NCBI GenBank assembly: GCA_041664365.1
Contig: JBAYKW010000003.1
Coordinates: 28,696 to 92,695 of the forward strand
Source of the DNA: Patescibacteria group bacterium
GTDB taxonomy: Bacteria > Patescibacteriota > Patescibacteriia > UM-FILTER-42-10
Direction: 5' to 3'
Length of the DNA: 64,000 nt
The notes below the pieces were generated by a model. It was not told the origin of the DNA. It searched no databases and saw only the letters and a program-made list of their open reading frames with translations. Numbering within the stretch: the stretch's first letter is position 1; each line of letters opens with the position of its first letter. Position numbers and translations under genes: made by a program. Of the stretch, positions 4,480 to 38,657 are shown in pieces.

Positions 4480-6000
4480 ATGCCTTCAAAACTATACTCC
4501 GCCGCGTTGGTCGGTATTGAAAGCCAAATAATTGAGGTGGAAGCTGACGTAGCCTCTGGCCTGCCTAACTTGATTGTGGTCGGTCTACCGGATACAGCGG
4601 TGCAAGAGGCGAAGATCAGGGTGCGCTCGGCGATTATCAACAGCGGTTTGCCTTTCCCAAGGACCAGGGTAACTGTAAATTTAGCGCCTGCGGATCTAAA
4701 AAAAGAAGGTTCATCTTTTGACTTGCCGATAGCACTAGGGATTTATATGGCAACACGGGGTGTTGATATAAATTTACCGAAAGAAAAATCAATATTCATC
4801 GGGGAACTTGCTTTGGATGGAACGGTGCGGAGGGTCAGCGGTATATTGTCAATCGTTATGATGGCGAAACAAAATAATATTAAAAATATATTTCTCCCGG
4901 CGGAAAATATTGAGGAAGCGCGGGTCATCTCTGGGATAAAAGTATTTGCTGTCTCAAACCTGATGCAACTTGTAAATCATTTAGATAATTCACGTTTAAT
5001 TATCCCAACATCACATCATATTGAAAGGCTTACTGAAAATGAAAATATTGATGAAACATTTTCTCAGGTAAAAGGCCAGGAGTTTGCCAAGCGCGCGCTG
5101 GTTATTGCTGCGGCAGGAGGACATAACCTCTTCATGACCGGACCTCCGGGCACCGGTAAAACTATGCTGGCCAGAAGTATCCTTTCAATCTTGCCTGAAC
5201 TTCAGACATCAGAAATGTTTGAAGTAACCAAAATCTACAGTGTTGCAAAATTACTGGCCAAAGGCGGGTCGTTGGTGTCAAAGAGGCCATTCCGATCACC
5301 ACACCACACCGCATCTGCCGCCGCACTGATCGGCGGCGGCAGAACTCCAAAGCCTGGCGAAATATCGCTTGCTCACCGGGGAGTATTGTTCCTGGATGAG
5401 TTGCCGGAATTCCCGAGAATCGTTCTGGAAAGTCTTCGCCAGCCTTTGGAGGATGGGCAAGTGACAGTGGCCAGAGTTTCGGGCACTATTCAGTTTCCAG
5501 CTAAGTTTATGCTGATCACTGCTGCCAATCCTTGCCCATGCGGTTATCTCTCCGATCCCAAACAGGTGTGTCGATGTTCACCGAATCAAATAATAAATTA
5601 TCAGAAAAGAGTATCCGGTCCGCTTTTGGACAGGATGGATTTACATGTGGAGGTGGCTAGGATCGAATTTTCTGAACTGGTTAGAGAGCCGGGTTCGATG
5701 CTTGAAACCATCGAGATCAGAAGAAAGATAAAGAAAGCGCGATTAATCCAGAACAGCCGTTTAAAACCGGCAGGACTTCTGGAGAATTCTGAAATGACTC
5801 AAAAGGAAATAAACCGCTATTGTCAGGTGGATAAAAATGCACAGACTCTTTTGAAACAAGCGGTGGAAAAATTCCCCCTGTCAGCACGAGCATATTTTAG
5901 AGTATTGAAAGTTGCCAGAACAATTGCCGATATAGAACAAGAGGAAAGAATCCAGACTCAGCATATTGCCGAGGCGCTGCAGTATAGATTAAAGTTGTAA
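4480..6000 (+). CDS. comM: YifB/ComM-family Mg-chelatase-like AAA+ ATPase
   Basis: N-terminal Lon-like domain (SAALVGIESQIIEVEADVASGLPNLIVVGLPDTAV), Walker A GPPGTGKT, and a C-terminal Mg-chelatase-like region. Confidence 0.85.
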   Translation: MPSKLYSAALVGIESQIIEVEADVASGLPNLIVVGLPDTAVQEAKIRVRSAIINSGLPFPRTRVTVNLAPADLKKEGSSFDLPIALGIYMATRGVDINLPKEKSIFIGELALDGTVRRVSGILSIVMMAKQNNIKNIFLPAENIEEARVISGIKVFAVSNLMQLVNHLDNSRLIIPTSHHIERLTENENIDETFSQVKGQEFAKRALVIAAAGGHNLFMTGPPGTGKTMLARSILSILPELQTSEMFEVTKIYSVAKLLAKGGSLVSKRPFRSPHHTASAAALIGGGRTPKPGEISLAHRGVLFLDELPEFPRIVLESLRQPLEDGQVTVARVSGTIQFPAKFMLITAANPCPCGYLSDPKQVCRCSPNQIINYQKRVSGPLLDRMDLHVEVARIEFSELVREPGSMLETIEIRRKIKKARLIQNSRLKPAGLLENSEMTQKEINRYCQVDKNAQTLLKQAVEKFPLSARAYFRVLKVARTIADIEQEERIQTQHIAEALQYRLKL

Positions 6001-6871: not shown

Positions 6872-8782
6872 ATGATTAATCAAAAAGGACTTACCCATAT
6901 AATAATCGCAATCGGTGCGTTTGCCGTAGCGGCTGTAATTTTTGTCGGCGCATGGTGGTTTGTTTTCGGTCGTTCAGATGATGCCAATACCACAAACACC
7001 AATACAACAGTTACAATAAATTCTTTTACTGAATGTGAGGCGGCCGGGTATCCGGTAATGGAAAGTTATCCTAGGCAATGTGCAGCGGGAGGTAAAACAT
7101 TTACGGAAGTAATTACCAATACAAATATTTCGGTTAATCAAAATGTTAATAGCACGACAGATAATAATTCTGTAAATCAAGTTTCATTTATTTCCTATTT
7201 AAGTGATGATAAAATATTTTCTCTGAATACAGAGAACGGAGATACTTCAATTGTGTTAGAGATATCTCAAATAATTGATTATGATATTACAAAAGATGGA
7301 CAAAATATTGCTTATGTATCAAAAAAGGATGATTTAGAAACAGAGGTACACATATATAATATTGGTACGCGATTAGATAGTATTGTTTTAAATGAACCGT
7401 TGACATATTATCATGATATTCTATTGTCCCCCGATGGCGGTAAAATTGCATATGTGAAAAAAATATATAATAATCAGGAAAATGAATATTTAAATCAGGC
7501 AGTTTATTATAGTGATATTGATGGAACAAGTGAAACAAAAATTGCCGACACCGGTAAGACTGATGCTGAGATTGGCAATATATATGGTAATGATGTTTGC
7601 CAGTGGGGGAATGATATAAATCTATTAGGTATTGAAGGTTGGGTACCAGAAAGTAATTATGTAGTTTATTATATTAACGATGATTATGAGTGTAGTGGTC
7701 CAGGACACGATAGAATTTATATTACGGATCTTAATGGGAATAAATCATTTTTTGATGAATATCTTTCTAATTCAGGAACTTTCGACTTTAACGGAAATGA
7801 AACTTCTTGGTTACCGGTAAGAATAGATTGGCCGATTGATGCAACTGTGAATGGTTCATTTTTGCTTTCTCAACATGCTCCAATCCCTATGACAAATAGT
7901 CGAATGGTTACTGTTGAAAATAATGAAATAAAAAAAGATTTTAATCTTATCAATTACGATGATCCGGAGTATAAGAATAATATGCAGAGGATCCGTTCAA
8001 ATTATGATTATAATAGTGAGCTTGTTGTATGGGATGAAAAAATACACTACTTTGGTAGTCGTTGGGAAGAATTAGGAAGTAATGAATCGATACAATTACT
8101 AAATCTGAGTCAAAATGAAGCATCAACTATTATTGAAGCGCAAACTGATCTAGCATACACAAATCCTGTGTTTATAGGCGATAATAAAATCTTATATCGT
8201 CGTTATAATGTTGAGGTGGTAACTAATCCATCCGGTTATACATATAATAAAAAATCTGATGATTTTGATTTGTTCATTTATGATTCATCTGATGAAAGTA
8301 ATAGAATGTTGATTGAAAATATCATTGCTGAAGATATTCATGGATATATTGCATCAGCGGCAAGTGGTTGGCAGACACATACCAATGATACTTATGGATT
8401 ATCTTTTAGTTATCCCTCGACAGTTGATATTGAGCAAGCAAGTGGCAATATTTATTTGGCATCTGGTGATGTACAATTCAACGAGATTGGCTCTTCAAAC
8501 GCTTTTTTAGCAGTAATTAATAATGCTGAATATTATGATCAGGACAATGCTCGATTGAATAACATTGTTGAGGATACCATCACTATTGCCGGGGGAGATT
8601 ATAAACGTACAACTGGAAATGACAATGGGCGATATGAGGGTGATTCTGCTGGGATAGTAGTTAATATTGCTTTTAGCGATTATACAATTCATATTGAGCA
8701 GAATCCGGGTAATACACATCCGATGGAAGACACTATTGCACTAGCAAATCAAATACTTTCAACATTCCAATTCACTAATTAA
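6872..8782 (+). CDS. Family member B: signal-anchor, Asn/Thr linker, TolB/PD40-like beta-propeller repeats, C-terminal domain ending TFQFTN
   Basis: N-terminus MINQKGLTHIIIAIGAFAVAAVIFVGAWWF; PD40-like motif LSPDGGKIAYV; C-terminus ANQILSTFQFTN. Confidence 0.6.
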   Translation: MINQKGLTHIIIAIGAFAVAAVIFVGAWWFVFGRSDDANTTNTNTTVTINSFTECEAAGYPVMESYPRQCAAGGKTFTEVITNTNISVNQNVNSTTDNNSVNQVSFISYLSDDKIFSLNTENGDTSIVLEISQIIDYDITKDGQNIAYVSKKDDLETEVHIYNIGTRLDSIVLNEPLTYYHDILLSPDGGKIAYVKKIYNNQENEYLNQAVYYSDIDGTSETKIADTGKTDAEIGNIYGNDVCQWGNDINLLGIEGWVPESNYVVYYINDDYECSGPGHDRIYITDLNGNKSFFDEYLSNSGTFDFNGNETSWLPVRIDWPIDATVNGSFLLSQHAPIPMTNSRMVTVENNEIKKDFNLINYDDPEYKNNMQRIRSNYDYNSELVVWDEKIHYFGSRWEELGSNESIQLLNLSQNEASTIIEAQTDLAYTNPVFIGDNKILYRRYNVEVVTNPSGYTYNKKSDDFDLFIYDSSDESNRMLIENIIAEDIHGYIASAASGWQTHTNDTYGLSFSYPSTVDIEQASGNIYLASGDVQFNEIGSSNAFLAVINNAEYYDQDNARLNNIVEDTITIAGGDYKRTTGNDNGRYEGDSAGIVVNIAFSDYTIHIEQNPGNTHPMEDTIALANQILSTFQFTN

Positions 8783-32988: not shown

Positions 32989-34350
32989 ATGACTGATAAA
33001 ATAAATACAAATAATATACCGGATTTAGAAGATTTAAAATTACTTGAAAAATACAAGGAATATATTGATTATGTTGAATTTAACAACGAGATAGCACTGG
33101 CCAAAGATATCTCCGACATGCTGCTTGCTCTGTTCGGGCATACCCCGAATTTCAATGTAAAAAATCCGGATTTATTTAAGGAATATCAGTCTATTTTAAT
33201 CCGCGCGCGCTGGGTCGCTCTTCCACTTCTGAAAGACCCGGATGTATTGGAGATGTTTGAAAAATATTACATGGAAGGGATGGCAATGTCGGAATTGGTG
33301 GATATCCAGGAAAAACTGAAAATTAATTTATTGAATCACTTATTACCGGAGGATCGGGATAAGCTGAAACTGGCAATCAGAAAAGCTTTGGAAAGAAATG
33401 TCCAGTTAATAACGAAAGACAAGCTTCAGGCGGATGAGGAAAAAAGAGATCCGACAATTGCAAATTGGATTTTGGATTTTACTTCAGAATTGGGGACCAA
33501 TATGTTTGACCGGGTAAAGGAGAACCAATATTTTGTAAATGGAAATAATACAAAAAAACTGTCAGAAACGGAAAAAACAAATCTGAGAGTACTACTTAAT
33601 ATCTATCGCCGTTGTGGCAGATCGTCTTTGACTCTTGAGGGAAATGAAGAACCAATTCCAGTTGATACAGAAAACAGAGTCGGTACCATCCGCGAAGGCC
33701 AGTTTGAAGAGATAAAAATGAAGGATTGGATAGCATTGGTGGAAAAGATGAAAAGTATCCGTAACATGAATTATAATGTTGATGATGCGCCGGCGGAAAT
33801 GACCGAAACGGAGAAAGAATTACAGCGGGAAAAACTGATTATGGAATTTCTCGGATCAGAAGGGGAGAGGATTATGATCCATAACGAGGAGAACAGCCTC
33901 GAGGAGACTAGTAATACAGGATTACAGGCGCTTGTTTCGATACTGATGGATGCGGTAGATCGGAAAGATAAATACAAAGCAATAGCTGCATTGCGCGTAA
34001 TCGCGGATAAGGGTAATTTGACGGAAGAATTTAAACTGAATGAAAGAGTCAGCGCATTGGCTAAAGAAATATTGCAAAAGCAATACAAACCGGAAATAAC
34101 CGCTGATTTTCAGCGTAATGGTTTCACGGCGCCCTATTTAAGTATATTTCTACAGCATATATTCCGGGAGAAAATGAATCTGGATGATGCGGAGTCCGCC
34201 CGATTTGGCGTACAGCTGGAAAATATTTTGGTGGAAAAGGGGCAGACATCCGTACAGGGGATGGTCTATGGTGATTTGATGAGCGGAAAATATATGTGGC
34301 AAGCAATAAAAGATGAAGGAGTTAAACTGTCAATTCCGGATCAGATCTAG
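32989..34350 (+). CDS. Hypothetical protein, no recognisable motifs
   Basis: Long ORF in the same orientation, tightly spaced with its neighbours. Confidence 0.45.
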   Translation: MTDKINTNNIPDLEDLKLLEKYKEYIDYVEFNNEIALAKDISDMLLALFGHTPNFNVKNPDLFKEYQSILIRARWVALPLLKDPDVLEMFEKYYMEGMAMSELVDIQEKLKINLLNHLLPEDRDKLKLAIRKALERNVQLITKDKLQADEEKRDPTIANWILDFTSELGTNMFDRVKENQYFVNGNNTKKLSETEKTNLRVLLNIYRRCGRSSLTLEGNEEPIPVDTENRVGTIREGQFEEIKMKDWIALVEKMKSIRNMNYNVDDAPAEMTETEKELQREKLIMEFLGSEGERIMIHNEENSLEETSNTGLQALVSILMDAVDRKDKYKAIAALRVIADKGNLTEEFKLNERVSALAKEILQKQYKPEITADFQRNGFTAPYLSIFLQHIFREKMNLDDAESARFGVQLENILVEKGQTSVQGMVYGDLMSGKYMWQAIKDEGVKLSIPDQI

Positions 34351-34437: not shown

Positions 34438-35484
34438 ATGCGAAGAATATATATTCTATCAGAAAAAAATATAGCTGAGTATTTATTGAACCAAGTCAAT
34501 AAATCGCTTCCTTTCAGGTTATTAAAAATTACCGAAGTCACGGAGATAACTAAATATACTAACGCTAGTTTTGTTTACCGGGTGCACTGCATTACCAATC
34601 AGGGGAAAAAGACTTTATTTCTTAAGCAGTCAGATGGTTATACGAAAAGAAACAGGAGAATTCGCGTGGATCCCGAGAGGGTAATAATTGAAGGAGAAAA
34701 GCTGAAGTTATTAGAATCATTGTTTGGTAAAGGAATTGTGCCTTTGGTATTATATGTTGATCTGAAAAATTATATTTTGGTGATGGATGATATTCAGGGG
34801 AAAAAGAAGATACTGATCGAAGAATTTGATCAGCATAAAGTGTATCCTCAGCTGGCACGGAAATTTGGCATTTTTTTTGGCACTCTGCACGGTAAAACAT
34901 ATAACACCCCACCCGTTTTCAACCGCTCGGCCTGGCAAAAAAGAATTTATCGTCTATGGAGAAACTGGATTCTATTTGGAGCGAAAAAGATCCTGCCCGA
35001 TAAAACAATTCGTGCGTTTATCCGACAGTCTGATCGGGCAAAAAAATCCTTGATCTGGGGAGATCCGGTCAACAAAAATATCTTTGTTAATCGGCAAAAT
35101 TTTTCGGTACTGGATTTTGATTTTGCTATGTATCACGATCCTGCTCTGGATAACGGGGTGTTTCTGGCGCACTGGGTTATAAAAATGTTGGAAGGAAAAA
35201 AGAAAATTGCCATTGATTGCCGGAATTTTATCATAAATTTCACCAAAGCATATCTTAAAACAACTATGACCATGGGTTTGTCAGTGCAAGAGCGCGACGG
35301 CATTATGAAAAGAACCATTGTCTGGACGGGTGTTTACATGGTCTCTCGTACGGACGGGCGGTCGGGCTCTTATTACAAAAAGTCACCGGTCTGGGAAAGC
35401 CAAATCAGAGAAACAGGTTTGGCGCTAATTACAAAGAAAAAAAATAATACCGCTGATTGGTTTAGAAAAGCTTTGACAAAATAA
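34438..35484 (+). CDS. Protein-kinase-like fold phosphotransferase (APH/choline-kinase/MtnK-like)
   Basis: Catalytic loop-like IWGDPVNKNIF (D..N) and the DFD-type motif VLDFDFAMYHDPALD. Confidence 0.5.
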   Translation: MRRIYILSEKNIAEYLLNQVNKSLPFRLLKITEVTEITKYTNASFVYRVHCITNQGKKTLFLKQSDGYTKRNRRIRVDPERVIIEGEKLKLLESLFGKGIVPLVLYVDLKNYILVMDDIQGKKKILIEEFDQHKVYPQLARKFGIFFGTLHGKTYNTPPVFNRSAWQKRIYRLWRNWILFGAKKILPDKTIRAFIRQSDRAKKSLIWGDPVNKNIFVNRQNFSVLDFDFAMYHDPALDNGVFLAHWVIKMLEGKKKIAIDCRNFIINFTKAYLKTTMTMGLSVQERDGIMKRTIVWTGVYMVSRTDGRSGSYYKKSPVWESQIRETGLALITKKKNNTADWFRKALTK

Positions 35485-35540
35485 AACACCCCGCGCACCG
35501 TACCAAAATCAATCAGTACGAAACGCGGGGGAAAAGGTGA
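35480..35540. terminator. Bidirectional GC-rich terminator hairpin between convergent genes
   Basis: ccccgcgcaccgtac...gtacgaaacgcggggg is flanked by an A-run on one side and a T-run on the other. Confidence 0.45.
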
Positions 35541-35552
35541 GGGCGCCAGGTT

Positions 35553-35684
35553 TTACGCCAAGGCGCCAGCGAAAAGGAGCAGGGTGCCGATCGTGGCGAA
35601 AGGTCCATCACCGCGATGGTTCTTTACCGAAATCAGCAGACACGCTAGTGCGAGCACTAGCACGATAGGCTTGACGAAGCGCAT
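35553..35684 (-). CDS. Small (43 aa) two-helix membrane peptide, second gene of the high-GC cassette
   Basis: MRFVKPIVLVLALACLLISVKNHRGDGPFATIGTLLLFAGALA. Its start codon lies 3 nt after the stop of the upstream gene, and it shares the same high GC. Confidence 0.35.
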   Translation of the reverse strand: MRFVKPIVLVLALACLLISVKNHRGDGPFATIGTLLLFAGALA

Positions 35685-35686
35685 TG

Positions 35687-36259
35687 TCAGCCTTCCTTGG
35701 TGAGGAATTCCACGGCCATCTCTTCGTTTTCGTGGAAGGCCAGCCATTTGTCGGCCGGCGACCACAGGCCGAGCGTCCGCAGAGCGTACATTTGGTCACG
35801 CGACCAACCGAACAGCACGACCTTCTTGGCCCGTCCCTCCTTGGCCAGAGACTTGCGGTTCCAAGCGAGGATCGGCACAAGGTGTGCGATGGTTCCTTCG
35901 CGACCGGAGAAGAACAGGAAAGCGTCGGATCGGGACGCCCAGATGCCGAGACGAAGGCTCCAGGTGACGAAAGGATCCGCCACGCCTCCTTGACGGTATT
36001 CCCTCGGAAGGGATTGGGCGATGATGTTGCAGTCCGTGATCGTCCGAATACTCCCGACATGGACAGTGCGGAGGGGAGCCGCAATGTGACCATGACAGAG
36101 GATGCCAGACTCATCAAAGATCCGGACGAGATCGCCCTGGATGCCCACGTTGGCTTCCCAGCGCTTCTGATTGAGAAGTATCGCGATTTTCATCGCGGCT
36201 TCAGCAAAGCTACCGCCACCGAGGTCGCGGTCCCCCTGAATGAACACTCTTTTTCCCAT
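35687..36259 (-). CDS. Degenerate LOG/TIGR00730-like (SLOG-superfamily Rossmann) protein within an island of about 60% GC
   Basis: C-terminal segment SDAFLFFSGREGTIAHLVPILAW resembles the LOG signature sDAfIalPGGxGTleEl..tW, with PGG and E replaced. N-terminal VFIQGDRDLGGGSF. GGAGG lies 9 nt upstream of the ATG at 36259. Confidence 0.45.
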   Translation of the reverse strand: MGKRVFIQGDRDLGGGSFAEAAMKIAILLNQKRWEANVGIQGDLVRIFDESGILCHGHIAAPLRTVHVGSIRTITDCNIIAQSLPREYRQGGVADPFVTWSLRLGIWASRSDAFLFFSGREGTIAHLVPILAWNRKSLAKEGRAKKVVLFGWSRDQMYALRTLGLWSPADKWLAFHENEEMAVEFLTKEG

Positions 36260-36556
36260 TGTCACTTGCCTCCGGGACGGTGGTGATTCTAAACCAGCCA
36301 GAATAATTTCTGGACTAGTTGTGCTCTATGTCAATGTGCCAGTAAAATGGGCACTCCTCTAAAAACGAATTATTTCACTTTCGACGGAATGCCCACTTCT
36401 CTCTCCAGTGTTTGAGTTTAACCGGCCATTATATACCTAATTTCACTTTTTGTCAATCCTAAAAGACTAATTCTTGGCTAAAATAGGGGGTTTTCAAAAC
36501 GTGAAAAATCCATTATGATTGTAGGTACTATCTAATGATTTAATATTTATTGTTTT

Positions 36557-36841
36557 ATGAATCCCGTTAGAGAAAATAGTATATGGTATACTTATCTAAT
36601 ACAAAGCCAAAAAGATAAACATTGGTATACCGGTTGTACTGATGATTTACGAAAGCGCTTTAAGGAACACAATAACGGTATGGTAAATTCTACTAAAGGT
36701 CGAGGGCCATTTAAATTAATTTATTATGAAGTGTGTCTTAATAAAAATGATGCTTTTGCTAGGGAAAAATATTTGAAATCTGGTATGGGCAAAAGATATC
36801 TAAAAAATCGTATTAAGCGCTTCCTAACTCTAACGGGATGA
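36557..36841 (+). CDS. Small standalone GIY-YIG nuclease-domain protein (UPF0213/YhbQ-like)
   Basis: YTYLIQSQKDKHWYTGCTDDLRKRFKEHNNG ... YLKSG. Confidence 0.7.
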   Translation: MNPVRENSIWYTYLIQSQKDKHWYTGCTDDLRKRFKEHNNGMVNSTKGRGPFKLIYYEVCLNKNDAFAREKYLKSGMGKRYLKNRIKRFLTLTG

Positions 36842-37512
36842 ATAAGCGTATCGCCAAGCTACTCAGTGACTTTGGTTTTTTTGTTTTCGGTAAGTTTTAC
36901 GGATCACTGGGCGAACCGTCACCTATCTACATAACAAGCAAGCGTCTTTATTCCCACCCGGACAAAATGAAAGTAGTGTCAGAAGAAATAGCTGATTTTA
37001 TGAAAGGTAAAAGTATTGATCTAGTGGCCGGTACAATGGTTTCCGGCACCCCTTTAGCCATGGCCGTATCGCTTGCATCGCATAAGCCGTTTATTTATCT
37101 TCGGCAAAAAACGAAGAAAGATGGTTCTTTGGTTACTTTATTGGAAGGGTTATACAGAAAAGGGGAAAGTGTGTTGGTGGTAGATGACGGGATCGGTACC
37201 GGCAGTACCAAAGAGCGCTTTATTAAAACTCTGCAGAAAAAGGGTCTGGTTGTCAAAGATGTACTGGTCCTTTATGATGCCGGGGTAGAGTATATTCCAT
37301 TCTATGCAAAACATAAAATTAAAATTCATTCGTTTGTAAAACATAATGATCTGGTTAAGTTCATGGTGAAGAATGGTTACATTTCAAAAAAATTAGGGGA
37401 CTATATGTATGATATTTGGAAGAACCTGAAAGAATGGCAGAAAGACCAGAAAAAGTGGAATGAATTTGTGTCACTGGCAAAATCCGAGGGTTTTACTGAT
37501 TCAAACAAATGA
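36838..37512 (+). CDS. Type I phosphoribosyltransferase, orotate-PRTase-like
   Basis: FGKFYGSLGEPSPIYI (OPRTase-like N-terminus) and the PRPP-binding motif VLVVDDGIGTGST. Confidence 0.6.
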   Translation: MNKRIAKLLSDFGFFVFGKFYGSLGEPSPIYITSKRLYSHPDKMKVVSEEIADFMKGKSIDLVAGTMVSGTPLAMAVSLASHKPFIYLRQKTKKDGSLVTLLEGLYRKGESVLVVDDGIGTGSTKERFIKTLQKKGLVVKDVLVLYDAGVEYIPFYAKHKIKIHSFVKHNDLVKFMVKNGYISKKLGDYMYDIWKNLKEWQKDQKKWNEFVSLAKSEGFTDSNK

Positions 37513-38411
37513 AGCGGATTTTACTTAGTGGATCTTCAAATAATCCCTTGGCAAAAAAAATTGCTTTAAAGACGGGTATCAGGTTGGGAAGATTATCCAT
37601 CAAAAAATTCAGAGACGGGGAAAAATATGTAAATGTCGGGGAAAATTTAAAAGAAAAGGAAGTAATTATCCTGCAATCAGGTTCTATGCCGGCAGATGAA
37701 CATTTAGTTGAGCTTTTATTAATTTTGGATGCGGTAAAAAGATTACGACCAAAAAAAATAATAGTGCTATTGCCGTTTTATCCTTATCGCAGGCAGGAAA
37801 AGGAATCACAAAAGGGGGATGCAATATCAGCAGAACTAATTGGGGGGCTTTTGCAGGCCTGTAAAATAGATAAACTTGTTGTTGTAGATCTGCATAGCCC
37901 TGTAATAAAAGGATTTTACAAAATTCCGGTCAAAGAAATATCCGCGATTCCATTATTTGTGAAATACTTCCAAAATAAAAAGATAGATGCCGCAGTTGCC
38001 CCCGATAAAGGAAGTATAAATCGTTCTGGCCGGTTTGCCTCCTTACTTAAAATTCCGGCCTTGGTAATGGAAAAAAAGCGAACTGAGCATGATAAGGTAC
38101 ATAGCCTAAAACTTATGGATATTTCTGGAAAAGCAGTGGAAGTGAAAAATAAGAATGTTGTGCTGGTTGATGATGAAATAAATACGGCGGGAACATTGGC
38201 AGAAAATGTAAATGTTTTAAAAAAACTTGGAGTAAATGATATATATTTTGCAGCGACTCATGCTGTTTTATCCGGTAAAGCGATACAGAGGATAAAAAAA
38301 ATGGCAGTCAAAGAGATAATTACTACTGATACTATCCGATTGCCTTCCGTAAAGAAAATTAGTAAACTGAAAGTGTTGTCCGTTGCAGATATAATCGCAA
38401 GAACGTTATAA
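37509..38411 (+). CDS. prs: Ribose-phosphate pyrophosphokinase (PRPP synthetase)
   Basis: N-terminal Prs domain (LAKKIALKTGIRLGRLSIKKFRDGE) and the PRPP-binding motif VVLVDDEINTAGTL. Confidence 0.85.
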   Translation: MKRILLSGSSNNPLAKKIALKTGIRLGRLSIKKFRDGEKYVNVGENLKEKEVIILQSGSMPADEHLVELLLILDAVKRLRPKKIIVLLPFYPYRRQEKESQKGDAISAELIGGLLQACKIDKLVVVDLHSPVIKGFYKIPVKEISAIPLFVKYFQNKKIDAAVAPDKGSINRSGRFASLLKIPALVMEKKRTEHDKVHSLKLMDISGKAVEVKNKNVVLVDDEINTAGTLAENVNVLKKLGVNDIYFAATHAVLSGKAIQRIKKMAVKEIITTDTIRLPSVKKISKLKVLSVADIIARTL

Positions 38412-38580: not shown

Positions 38581-38657
38581 GCGCCCGTAGCTCAGCTGGA
38601 TAGAGCGTAGGATTCCGGATCCTAAGGTCGGAGGTTCAAGCCCTCCTGGGCGCACCA
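38581..38657 (+). tRNA. tRNA-Arg (anticodon CCG), CCA encoded
   Basis: Manual cloverleaf: acceptor GCGCCCG/TGGGCGC, D-stem GCTC/GAGC, anticodon stem TAGGA/TCCTA with loop TTCCGGA, T-arm GGAGG-TTCAAGC-CCTCC, discriminator A plus CCA. Confidence 0.85.

What the first reader, a model, noticed from the sequence alone, without database searches (positions are those of the whole stretch)
35480..36300. Island of about 0.8 kb at roughly 60% GC in a low-GC genome, carrying a minus-strand two-gene cassette (degenerate LOG/SLOG-like Rossmann protein plus a 43-aa membrane peptide)
GC content jumps to about 60% between about 35530 and 36290. It returns abruptly on both sides. The left side ends at a GC-rich bidirectional terminator. 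The island encodes a 190-aa protein, and GGAGG lies 9 nt before its ATG. Its C-terminal half matches the LOG/TIGR00730 signature (SDAFLFFSGREGTIAHLVPILAW against sDAfIalPGGxGTleEl..tW), but with the catalytic PGG...E degenerated. This suggests a nucleotide-binding sensor rather than an enzyme. It is immediately followed, with a 3-nt gap, by a tiny two-helix membrane peptide. SLOG/LOG-like domains are known as nucleotide-signal sensors in bacterial conflict systems. A sensor plus a small membrane peptide resembles a minimal abortive-infection or toxin-like module. The compositional discontinuity is direct evidence of recent horizontal acquisition.
Basis: partly seen in the sequence, partly recalled or inferred. 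Interest (0 to 1): 0.65.

Follow-up and report, generated by a model that had tools for sequence, protein, structure and literature searches.

The report
GC-rich LOG-like gene in Patescibacteria
The GC-rich patch is a real gene for an uncharacterised relative of the LOG nucleotide-cleaving enzymes. It has sat in the same nucleotide-salvage gene cluster of these tiny bacteria for a very long time and is GC-richer than its host genome in every lineage examined, so it is not a recently imported defence cassette.

Summary
Window 35489-36283 is 58.7% GC in a 39.8% GC window, and it carries a 190-aa ORF, a 43-aa ORF, an SD and a terminator on the minus strand.

- The gene lies at the same site, opposite in strand to phosphoribosyltransferase, APH-type kinase, PRPP-synthase, NAPRTase and PEP-utilizer genes, in most of 14 Patescibacteria loci.
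- It co-diverges with its neighbour.
- Its synonymous sites are as saturated as the flanks.
- It is still GC-richer than its surroundings in 14 of 14 loci (mean +13 points GC, +21 points GC3).
- The 43-aa peptide occurs only in the closest clade and has no homologue elsewhere.

Best reading: a vertically inherited, divergent LOG-like nucleotide-processing protein of a salvage cluster. It has its own consensus promoter and a conserved, structured 5' leader that pairs the SD. The cause of the persistent GC excess is unresolved. The mRNAs fold more stably than codon-permuted versions, but there is no conserved RNA structure.

The parts
35489..36283 (.). GC-rich segment (58.7% GC). It covers the terminator, ORF B, ORF A and the RBS only.
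35687..36259 (-). ORF A, 190 aa: a divergent LOG-like (SLOG-cluster4-related) protein. Key residues are Q8-G9-D10-R11, N37/G39/G42, H58, C77, W100, R103 (equivalent to LOG's catalytic Arg), S111-D-A-F, G119, G122-T123, H126 (at LOG's catalytic Glu position) and G151-W152.
35553..35684 (-). ORF B, 43 aa, a small protein with two hydrophobic segments (MRFVKPIVLVLALACLLISVKNHRGDGPFATIGTLLLFAGALA). Its SD (AAGGAAGG) lies in the last codons of ORF A. It is specific to the closest clade.
   Evidence: Conserved as exactly 43 codons in L001 and L003. Absent in L008, L007, L011, L012 and L015. No homologue in the 5.8-billion-protein database. Synonymous sites are unusually conserved.
35470..35531 (-). 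Intrinsic terminator of the A-B transcript: a hairpin at 35489-35530 followed by a U-run. The U-run overlaps the last codons and stop of the convergent APH-like gene.
   Evidence: -29.4 kcal/mol, z -5.2. Conserved in L001, L003 and L008.
36428..36456 (-). Consensus sigma-70-type promoter: TTGACA, 17-nt spacer, TATAAT (12 of 12 matches).
   Evidence: The -35 and -10 elements are conserved in L001 and L003, and the -10 in L008.
36260..36421 (-). Conserved, structured 5' leader. P1 is a long hairpin (within 36328-36408). P2 is a hairpin at 36294-36318. A short helix pairs CCACC (36279-36283) with the SD GGAGG (36269-36273).
   Evidence: Alignment. MFE -52 kcal/mol, z -3.5. RNAalifold. 93% of cells paired against 37-47% in slid controls, and 5 double-change pairs reached by 7 of 500 shuffles. 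The covariance model hits only upstream of this gene in the close clade. No Rfam match.
34438..35484 (+). Convergent neighbour: an APH-family kinase, 348 aa, weakly similar to methylthioribose kinase. It is a conserved partner across the family.
   Evidence: PF01636. TIGR01767 at 52 bits, below its cutoff. Synteny.
36838..38411 (+). Divergently transcribed neighbours: a type-I phosphoribosyltransferase (OPRT/APRT-like, 224 aa) and ribose-phosphate diphosphokinase (PRPP synthase, 300 aa).

Best explanation
ORF A encodes a Patescibacteria-restricted, highly divergent member of the LOG branch of the SLOG superfamily. It is not a recent import. It is an old, vertically inherited component of a conserved gene cluster made of type-I phosphoribosyltransferase paralogues, an APH-type (methylthioribose-kinase-like) kinase, PEP-utilizer-domain proteins, PRPP synthase and NAPRTase. 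Within that cluster it is almost always the single gene on the opposite strand.

Most likely function (inferred): it binds a nucleoside 5'-monophosphate-like ligand in the LOG pocket and cleaves or exchanges its N-glycosidic bond, using the retained Arg103 and a His126 in place of LOG's Glu. That would yield ribose-5-phosphate plus base, which PRPP synthase and the neighbouring phosphoribosyltransferases can re-use.

Expression (inferred from sequence): it is transcribed from its own consensus promoter. Translation is gated by a conserved, structured ~165-nt leader whose last helix pairs the Shine-Dalgarno sequence. Transcription ends at a strong hairpin terminator.

Peptide B: in the window's clade a 43-aa hydrophobic peptide has been added between the gene and the terminator.

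GC excess: it is a long-standing property of the gene family. I think the most likely cause is a gene-specific pressure that favours GC-rich, stably folded mRNA and opposes the host's AT-biased mutation. This last step is the weakest.
For: Shown:
- Coding under purifying selection.
- Homology to PF18306 proteins, hhalign 99.6%, E 1e-23.
- Family profile hits LOG enzymes in the PDB across the Arg...GT..E region.
- The R103/T123/H126 spacing is identical to CgLOG Arg99/Thr119/Glu122.
- Synteny with PRT, APH, PRPP-synthase, NAPRTase, PEP-utilizer and ribokinase genes recurs across Patescibacteria loci, including Uhrbacteria and Kerfeldbacteria. The exceptions are L007, which has a different context, and short or truncated contigs.
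- Bona fide LOG paralogues sit in the same clusters in L007, L015 and L023.
- Co-divergence with the APH neighbour, Mantel r 0.67, p 8e-4.
- Synonymous saturation equal to the flanks.
- Gene GC exceeds flank GC in 14 of 14 loci, and gene GC tracks host GC with r 0.72.
- Neutral decay from a single import cannot reproduce the observed GC3.
- Native mRNAs fold better than synonymous permutations: mean z -2.2 against -0.57 for neighbouring genes, Mann-Whitney p 0.009. The result persists with a local-block null, 9 of 9 negative.
- Promoter, leader and terminator.
Against: - The pathway of the cluster is unknown, and the PRT and kinase neighbours all score below curated family cutoffs.
- GC maintenance is not proven. 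On the L001/L003 branches, third-position GC>AT changes outnumber AT>GC by 23 to 5. After allowing for parsimony bias this is marginal evidence (p about 0.04) of net decay.
- There is no conserved mRNA structure in the CDS: alifold z is -0.95 and +0.55.
- The correlation between structure z and GC3 excess is weak (rho -0.50, p 0.07).
- The 14 loci are phylogenetically related, so the Wilcoxon p overstates independence.
- The leader is supported by only 5 distinct sequences.
Confidence: 0.55

Rival explanations
1. This is a recently acquired two-gene conflict module: a degenerate SLOG nucleotide-signal sensor controls a small membrane-disrupting peptide, in the manner of an abortive-infection or toxin-like system.
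For: SLOG fold with an altered catalytic motif. ORF B is hydrophobic, follows ORF A after 2 nt and has its own SD. The cassette is a stand-alone transcription unit with a strong promoter and a strong compositional anomaly.
Confidence: 0.06
2. ORF A is a non-catalytic ligand-binding protein, acting as a carrier or regulator as the LOG-fold MoCo carrier protein does. It would sense or buffer a nucleotide or PRPP-related metabolite for the surrounding salvage cluster and would not hydrolyse anything.
Against: The catalytic Arg, the GT of the phosphate loop and the SDAF strand are almost invariant. His can act as a general acid or base. Canonical LOG paralogues are present in only some clusters, so this protein may supply the activity elsewhere.
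Confidence: 0.28
3. The GC excess reflects repeated horizontal replacement. The gene is re-imported again and again, always into the same cluster, from a high-GC donor pool, and each copy is then ameliorating.
For: All three codon positions and the amino-acid composition are 'high-GC-like'. The loci look like a series of amelioration stages, with GC3 excess ranging from +0.06 to +0.34 while the GC1 and GC2 excess is usually retained. Net GC>AT flux at third positions in one sister pair. The nearest outgroup family (PF18306) includes proteins from non-CPR bacteria such as Terriglobia.
Against: No close homologue outside Patescibacteria-type contexts was found among 5.8 billion and 1.84 billion proteins. 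The gene co-diverges with its neighbour. Its synonymous divergence equals that of the flanks. There are no mobility genes, and the island-flanking repeat in the window is not conserved in relatives. Gene GC scales with host GC.
Confidence: 0.15
4. The GC-rich block is really a structured non-coding RNA or a dual-coding (antisense) gene, and ORF A is incidental.
For: In AT-rich genomes, GC-rich islands are often RNA genes. A 200-aa antisense ORF spans the block. The mRNAs fold more stably than permuted controls.
Against: The substitution pattern is protein-like in ORF A's frame. The AF2 model is confident and has a LOG fold. The antisense ORF is broken in L001 and L003. No Rfam hit. No conserved consensus structure.
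Confidence: 0.02

Closest known systems
LOG / 'Lonely Guy' nucleotide 5'-monophosphate phosphoribohydrolases (PF03641, TIGR00730; for example B. subtilis YvdD 1t35, C. glutamicum LOG, PpnN)
   Different: No Pfam or NCBIfam hit even at E<=10. PGGxGTxxE is replaced by (P/S)G(R)EGTxAH, with the catalytic Glu changed to His and the adenine-contacting Glu changed to Ala. The N-terminal GGS-type loop is replaced by QGDR(D). The family has its own invariant W100, W152, H58 and C77. Activity is unknown.
SLOG cluster4 family (Pfam PF18306, LDcluster4)
   Same: This is the closest family by sequence: profile-profile probability 99.6%, E 1e-23, over nearly the full length. One peripheral member (P0064) carries a weak PF18306 hit and sits in the same kind of cluster.
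   Different: PF18306 proteins keep GGGGPGTFLE with the Glu. The window protein is not detected by the PF18306 model. The Patescibacteria family has its own signature and its own conserved gene neighbourhood.
Molybdenum-cofactor carrier protein (LOG fold, non-catalytic; 2iz5)
   Different: No sequence relationship was detected and there are no molybdenum-cofactor genes nearby.
Thoeris ThsA SLOG domain and other SLOG sensors of conflict systems
   Same: Same superfamily. Some SLOG domains bind nucleotide signals.
Compositionally atypical genomic islands from horizontal transfer, under the amelioration model
   Same: A sharp GC discontinuity of about +19 points, with GC3 about 6 SD above the other window genes.
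   Different: The island is syntenic, as diverged as its flanks, and present with the same offset in deep relatives. It has no integrase, no tRNA target and no conserved flanking repeats. Neutral amelioration does not fit the numbers.

Membership tests
LOG family (PF03641 / TIGR00730) | Detected by the curated family HMMs | tested here: not met
   No Pfam or NCBIfam hit at E<=10.
LOG family (PF03641 / TIGR00730) | LOG-type Rossmann-like α/β fold | tested here: met
LOG family (PF03641 / TIGR00730) | PGGxGTxxE nucleotide-binding motif with the catalytic Glu | tested here: not met
   The window protein has S-G-R-E-G-T-I-A-H and the family consensus is P-G-x-E-G-T-x-A-H. The Glu position is His126.
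LOG family (PF03641 / TIGR00730) | Catalytic Arg 23 residues before the catalytic Glu position | tested here: met
   R103 is conserved in at least 90% of 50 family members and matches the CgLOG Arg99/Glu122 spacing.
LOG family (PF03641 / TIGR00730) | Phosphoribohydrolase activity on nucleoside 5'-monophosphates; homodimer with the active site at the interface | not testable with these tools
   Needs enzyme assays and oligomer analysis.
SLOG cluster4 (PF18306) | Sequence homology to PF18306 members | tested here: met
   hhalign of A2 against A4 gives 99.6%, E 1.2e-23, over 168 columns. The family profile retrieves PF18306 proteins at E 1e-10 to 1e-14.
SLOG cluster4 (PF18306) | Detected by the PF18306 HMM itself | tested here: not met
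   No hit for the window protein. Only the peripheral member P0064 has a weak hit.
SLOG-sensor defence system (Thoeris-like or other) | Match to known defence-system models, with an effector or TIR partner conserved next to the SLOG gene | tested here: not met
Two-gene toxin / abortive-infection cassette (protein plus small membrane peptide) | The two genes co-occur across homologues | tested here: not met
   The peptide is present only in window/L006, L001 and L003. It is absent in L008, L007, L011, L012 and L015. No homologue elsewhere.
Two-gene toxin / abortive-infection cassette (protein plus small membrane peptide) | The peptide is toxic and the partner modulates that toxicity | not testable with these tools
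   Needs expression experiments.
Recently acquired genomic island | Absent from, or differently placed in, related genomes; less diverged than the flanks; mobility signatures | tested here: not met
   Same site in L001, L003, L006, L008 and L019. Codon identity at conserved residues is near saturation, as in the flanks. No conserved flanking repeats. No integrase or tRNA at the borders.
Recently acquired genomic island | Compositional discontinuity | tested here: met
   58.7% against 39.8% GC. GC3 0.70 against 0.355 +/- 0.057.
Known cis-regulatory RNA families (Rfam riboswitches and leaders) | Match of the 5' leader to an Rfam covariance model | tested here: not met
   No relevant hit at E<=10 on 35000-36800. 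Nothing at gathering score in the whole window except a tRNA.

The most novel reading that the evidence does not exclude
This small LOG-like gene family has kept a base composition 10-20 GC points (20-30 points at third codon positions) above its host genomes across a broad range of Patescibacteria lineages, while being inherited vertically in one gene cluster. That would imply a gene-specific, long-acting force that overrides genome-wide mutation bias. Candidates are selection for a GC-rich, stably folded mRNA, locally reduced deamination, or biased gene conversion. The same gene is controlled, in the window's clade, by a previously undescribed structured leader that may sense a nucleotide or PRPP-related metabolite.
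Probability: 0.3. Interest if true: 0.75.

Novelty: new variant of a known kind. Interest (0 to 1): 0.5.

Why it matters
Patescibacteria (CPR) lack most de novo nucleotide synthesis and depend on salvage. This analysis defines an uncharacterised LOG-like protein with no Pfam, NCBIfam or PADLOC model. It is a conserved member of a cluster rich in phosphoribosyltransferases, kinases and PRPP synthase, which makes it a concrete candidate for a missing salvage step or regulator.

The result is also a caution for island-based HGT calls. A sharp 19-point GC jump here is not a recent import but an old, family-wide trait. If that trait is actively maintained, this would be a rare case of gene-specific base-composition equilibrium in bacteria, and it could be tested by recoding the gene.

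The conserved SD-sequestering leader is a candidate new cis-regulatory RNA.

Tried and rejected
- Pfam, NCBIfam, PADLOC and PHROGs scans of both ORFs gave nothing usable.
- A single-sequence PDB search gave nothing. Only the 50-member profile reached LOG enzymes. The PPR-protein hits in that search are short repeated chance matches.
- The afdb50 fold library was unavailable.
- The hidden-ncRNA idea was rejected. There is no Rfam hit and no conserved consensus fold in the CDS.
- The antisense 200-aa ORF was rejected because it is broken in L001 and L003.
- An inverted repeat that brackets the island exactly (35453-35467 / 36287-36301, 13 of 15) looked like a mobile-element end. It is not found in L001, L003, L008 or L019, and one arm lies in conserved APH coding sequence, so I treat it as chance.
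- Head-on or lagging-strand orientation as the cause of high GC was rejected. Six other minus-strand genes in the window have normal GC3.
- Stop-codon recoding in L015 was rejected. The stop is TAA where the family has CAA, a simple nonsense change, and the contig carries ordinary bacterial housekeeping genes.
- The covariance model of the leader found no instance in the deeper family loci.
- Peptide B returned no homologue.
- The first full alignment (A2) was too divergent for the locus scan. A3 worked but yielded few new loci.
- Literature searches for this family or cluster in CPR found nothing specific.
Full report
1. OBSERVATION

The compositional anomaly is real and strong.
- The maximal GC-rich segment is 35489-36283 at 58.7% GC, in a window averaging 39.8%.
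- The best 760-nt window is 59.1% GC. The next best anywhere in the 64 kb is 49.7%, and the SD of such windows is 4.8%.
- On the minus strand lie a 190-aa ORF (ORF A, 35687-36259, ATG preceded by GGAGG at a 9-nt spacing) and a 43-aa ORF (ORF B, 35553-35684). ORF B starts 2 nt after ORF A's stop.
- ORF A has GC1/GC2/GC3 of 0.61/0.45/0.70. The other 43 long ORFs of the window have GC3 of 0.355 +/- 0.057, with a maximum of 0.453.
- The excess is confined to the RBS, the two ORFs and the terminator. The 5' leader is 40% GC and the promoter region 29%.
- The hairpin at 35489-35530 folds at -29.4 kcal/mol on the minus strand and is followed by a U-run. On the plus strand it is weaker (-20.1 kcal/mol) and has no U-run. 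It is therefore the cassette's terminator and not a clearly bidirectional one.

2. ORF A IS A REAL PROTEIN WITH A LOG FOLD

- Pfam, NCBIfam and PADLOC give no hit even at E<=10, and PDB sequences give none.
- Only six homologues exist among 5.8 billion clustered proteins. The two that carry an organism name are from Patescibacteria MAGs.
- An exhaustive profile search finds 59 clusters among 1.84 billion representatives.
- Across homologues, dN/dS is 0.2-0.3 and differences concentrate at codon position 3.
- The full-length antisense ORF seen in the window is broken in relatives, so it is a by-product of GC richness.
- The 50-member family profile retrieves proteins carrying PF18306 ('SLOG cluster4'). 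Against an alignment of those it gives hhalign probability 99.6%, E 1e-23, over almost the full length.
- Against PDB sequences, the profile hits LOG enzymes across the Arg...PGGxGTxxE segment.
- In C. glutamicum LOG the proposed catalytic residues are Arg99 and Glu122, and Thr119 binds the phosphate (PMC4979012). In ORF A, R103, T123 and H126 have exactly the same spacing.
- So the catalytic Arg and the GT are kept. The Glu is a His, which is invariant in the 13 closest members and is the majority residue family-wide. The adenine-contacting Glu is Ala, and the loop reads (P/S)-G-R-E-G-T.
- The family has its own near-invariant residues: QGDR after strand 1, G39/G42, W100, G151-W152, and in closer members N37, H58 and C77.

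3. NOT A RECENT IMPORT

- The gene occupies the same position, between an APH-family kinase and phosphoribosyltransferase genes, in L001/L002, L003-L005, L006 (the window's own species), L008 and L019. These contigs come from several samples and assemblers.
- All of these copies are GC-rich in 38-42% GC flanks.
- The flanking proteins are as diverged as ORF A. APH-like identity is 0.61-0.69, against 0.54-0.64 for ORF A.
- At residues conserved between species, codon identity in ORF A is 0.37-0.54. About 0.37-0.41 is expected at full synonymous saturation, and the flanks behave the same way.
- Pairwise identities of ORF A and of the neighbouring kinase are correlated across 11 loci (Mantel r 0.67, p 8e-4). 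No distant pair shows anomalously high identity.
- There are no mobility genes and no tRNA at the borders. The inverted repeat that brackets the island in the window is absent from relatives.

4. THE CONSERVED PARTNERS ARE METABOLIC; THE PEPTIDE IS NOT ONE OF THEM

- In nearly every locus with enough DNA, the gene is the single oppositely oriented gene beside type-I PRT paralogues and, where the contig extends far enough, an APH-family kinase. This includes Uhrbacteria (L011), Kerfeldbacteria (L012, two tandem paralogues) and several unnamed Patescibacteria-type contigs (L015, L017, L019, L023, L024, L025).
- The exceptions are L007, which has a different context (same strand, downstream of a bona fide LOG gene), and L021, whose neighbours are PEP-utilizer and NAPRTase genes.
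- The PRT paralogues are OPRT/APRT-like but score below curated cutoffs. The kinase has a weak methylthioribose-kinase similarity.
- Also frequent in the cluster are PRPP synthase (TIGR01251, 279 bits in the window), NAPRTase, arrays of ~500-aa PEP-utilizer-domain proteins and, in L015, a ribokinase-like gene.
- Bona fide LOG (PF03641) paralogues occur in the cluster in L007, L015 and L023.
- ORF B is conserved as exactly 43 codons, with an SD embedded in ORF A's last codons, only in window/L006, L001 and L003.
- ORF B is absent in L008, where just 80 nt separate the gene from the kinase, and in L007, L011, L012 and L015. It has no homologue in the protein database.
- This removes the main support for a sensor-plus-membrane-toxin module.

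5. MOST LIKELY FUNCTION (INFERENCE)

- LOG enzymes cleave the N-glycosidic bond of nucleoside 5'-monophosphates to give a base plus ribose-5-phosphate. PRPP synthase converts ribose-5-phosphate to PRPP. PRTs join bases to PRPP. A LOG-like protein inside such a cluster fits a base/ribose-phosphate recycling role.
- I therefore favour a nucleotide-processing enzyme with an Arg/His active site (about 0.4).
- The main rival is a non-catalytic metabolite binder or regulator, on the MoCo-carrier precedent (about 0.3).
- No step of this has been shown experimentally.

6. EXPRESSION SIGNALS

- A perfect TTGACA-17-TATAAT promoter lies at 36456-36428(-).
- The ~165-nt leader down to the ATG is far better conserved among window, L001, L003, L008 and L019 than the saturated synonymous sites of the CDS.
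- It folds at -52 kcal/mol, z -3.5, into three elements: a 20-25-bp hairpin P1, a hairpin P2, and a short helix pairing CCACC with the SD GGAGG.
- On four sequences, 93% of cells are paired, against 37-47% when partners are slid. Five pairs show double changes, a count reached by 7 of 500 shuffles.
- The 3' arm of P1 can alternatively pair with a conserved GGCAC downstream.
- A covariance model finds the element only upstream of this gene in the window's clade (E<=1e-15) and nowhere else in 233 kb. Rfam has no match.
- This is a candidate new translational-control leader. Its ligand or effector is unknown.

7. THE GC EXCESS IS FAMILY-WIDE AND UNEXPLAINED

- In 14 of 14 distinct loci the gene is GC-richer than its surroundings. 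The mean is +13 points, with a range of +2.5 to +19.5.
- GC3 exceeds that of the neighbouring genes by +21 points on average.
- Host GC ranges from 33% to 53%, and gene GC tracks it (r 0.72). Examples are 67% against 51% in the Uhrbacteria contig (GC3 0.81) and 63% against 53% in the Kerfeldbacteria contig.
- All three codon positions and the amino-acid composition are shifted. GARP residues are 0.305 against 0.189 in the neighbours, and third-position C is 0.42 against 0.14.
- Orientation is not the cause, because six other minus-strand genes in the window are normal.
- Neutral amelioration of a single ancient import does not fit. In simulation, even a start at GC3 0.95 predicts about 0.5 in L001/L003, where 0.71 is observed. 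By the same logic, lineages whose synonymous sites are fully saturated should retain essentially no excess, yet +0.17 to +0.30 is observed.
- Stationarity is not proven either. On the L001/L003 branches, third-position GC>AT changes outnumber AT>GC by 23 to 5, while the flanks show 42:46 and 24:38. After allowing for the parsimony bias of a near-saturated GC-rich outgroup (at most 65% expected), this is marginal evidence of net decay, p about 0.04.
- Native mRNAs fold more stably than versions with synonymous codons permuted. The mean z is -2.2 for 14 homologues against -0.57 for 14 neighbouring genes (Mann-Whitney p 0.009).
- With permutation restricted to 30-codon blocks, 9 of 9 homologues are still negative, with mean z -2.2.
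- There is no conserved consensus structure in the CDS, however. Alifold against column-shuffled alignments gives z -0.95 and +0.55.
- My reading, at low-to-moderate confidence, is a gene-specific pressure for GC-rich, generally well-folded mRNA. Another local GC-favouring process, such as reduced deamination in stable duplex DNA or biased gene conversion (background: PMC4450053, listed), is also possible. Either would act against AT-biased mutation.
- Repeated xenologous replacement remains possible, at about 0.15.

8. VERDICT

- The fold and motif interpretation is supported.
- The recent-HGT and abortive-infection interpretations are not supported.
- The object is a new, divergent variant of a known kind: a LOG/SLOG-cluster4-like protein. 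It belongs to a conserved Patescibacteria nucleotide/PRPP cluster.
- Two features are genuinely unusual and deserve follow-up: a persistent, family-wide GC excess, and an undescribed structured leader.

Noticed in passing
window 36260-36421 (-); also L001 ~7838-8000, L003 ~7838-8000, L008 ~1275-1441, L019 ~5800-6000: A ~165-nt 5' leader is conserved far beyond the level of neutral sites. It has two hairpins and an SD-pairing helix, has no Rfam match, and is a candidate new cis-regulatory RNA in front of the LOG-like gene.
   Followed up: yes
window 35553-35684 (-), especially the 18-nt block ATCGGCACCCTGCTCCTT: ORF B's synonymous sites are much more conserved (pS 0.22-0.36) than ORF A's (0.61), and dN/dS is 0.3-0.8. 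This suggests an extra nucleotide-level constraint on this stretch, whose nature is unknown. A 9-nt segment of ORF B (GAUCGGCAC) is complementary to ORF A's VPIL codons in the window, but not in L001.
   Followed up: partly
window 36557-36841 (+): A 94-aa stand-alone GIY-YIG domain gene sits between the cassette's promoter and the PRT gene, and its stop overlaps the PRT start. It is present only in the window's own species (L006) and not in L001, L003, L008 or L019, so it looks like a lineage-specific insertion. Its mRNA also folds unusually well (z -3.9 against codon permutations).
   Followed up: partly
L015 6001-6570 (contig Ga0180007_10000021, 304 kb): The family homologue has an in-frame TAA exactly at the conserved Gln (CAA) of the VFxQGDRD motif, so it is probably a recent pseudogene or a sequencing error. 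This copy also has one of the smallest GC excesses (+5 points, GC3 0.36).
   Followed up: partly
L012 3044-3649 and 3813-4424 (Kerfeldbacteria): Two tandem paralogues of the family lie side by side, both GC-richer than the contig. The upstream one has a more degenerate motif (YPGRFGG).
   Followed up: no
L008 ~1439-2008: The database protein P0004 is N-terminally truncated by the gene caller. The ORF really starts 45 nt upstream (MTKRLFIQGDGNLGMEQ...), which restores the QGD motif.
   Followed up: yes
L007 2431-3198, L015 4596-5219, L023 3749-4378: Canonical LOG (PF03641/PF18306) paralogues occur in the same clusters as the divergent family. Regional GC profiles around the L007 and L015 copies look close to their contig averages, but this was not measured per gene and was not checked for L023. 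If it holds, the anomaly is specific to the divergent family.
   Followed up: partly
L001 2414-7661, L019 1-4926, L021 2798-11104: Arrays of 3-6 type-I PRT paralogues and 2-4 ~500-aa PEP-utilizer-domain paralogues surround the gene. All score below curated family cutoffs. This is an uncharacterised, apparently Patescibacteria-typical phosphoribosyl/phosphotransfer gene cluster.
   Followed up: no
window 35453-35467 and 36287-36301: A 15-nt inverted repeat (13 of 15) brackets the GC island exactly. One arm lies in conserved APH coding sequence and the pair is absent in relatives, so I judge it to be chance.
   Followed up: yes
window 38581-38654 (+): A single tRNA gene lies just downstream of the PRPP-synthase gene. 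It is the only Rfam gathering-score hit in the 64-kb window.
   Followed up: no
upstream of the cluster in L001, L003 and L006 (e.g. L001 11427-16588): The cluster is flanked by giant genes (~1200-1300 aa and >3100 aa with a PA14 domain), in conserved order. A 453-aa protein with no family hit lies at window 32989-34350.
   Followed up: no
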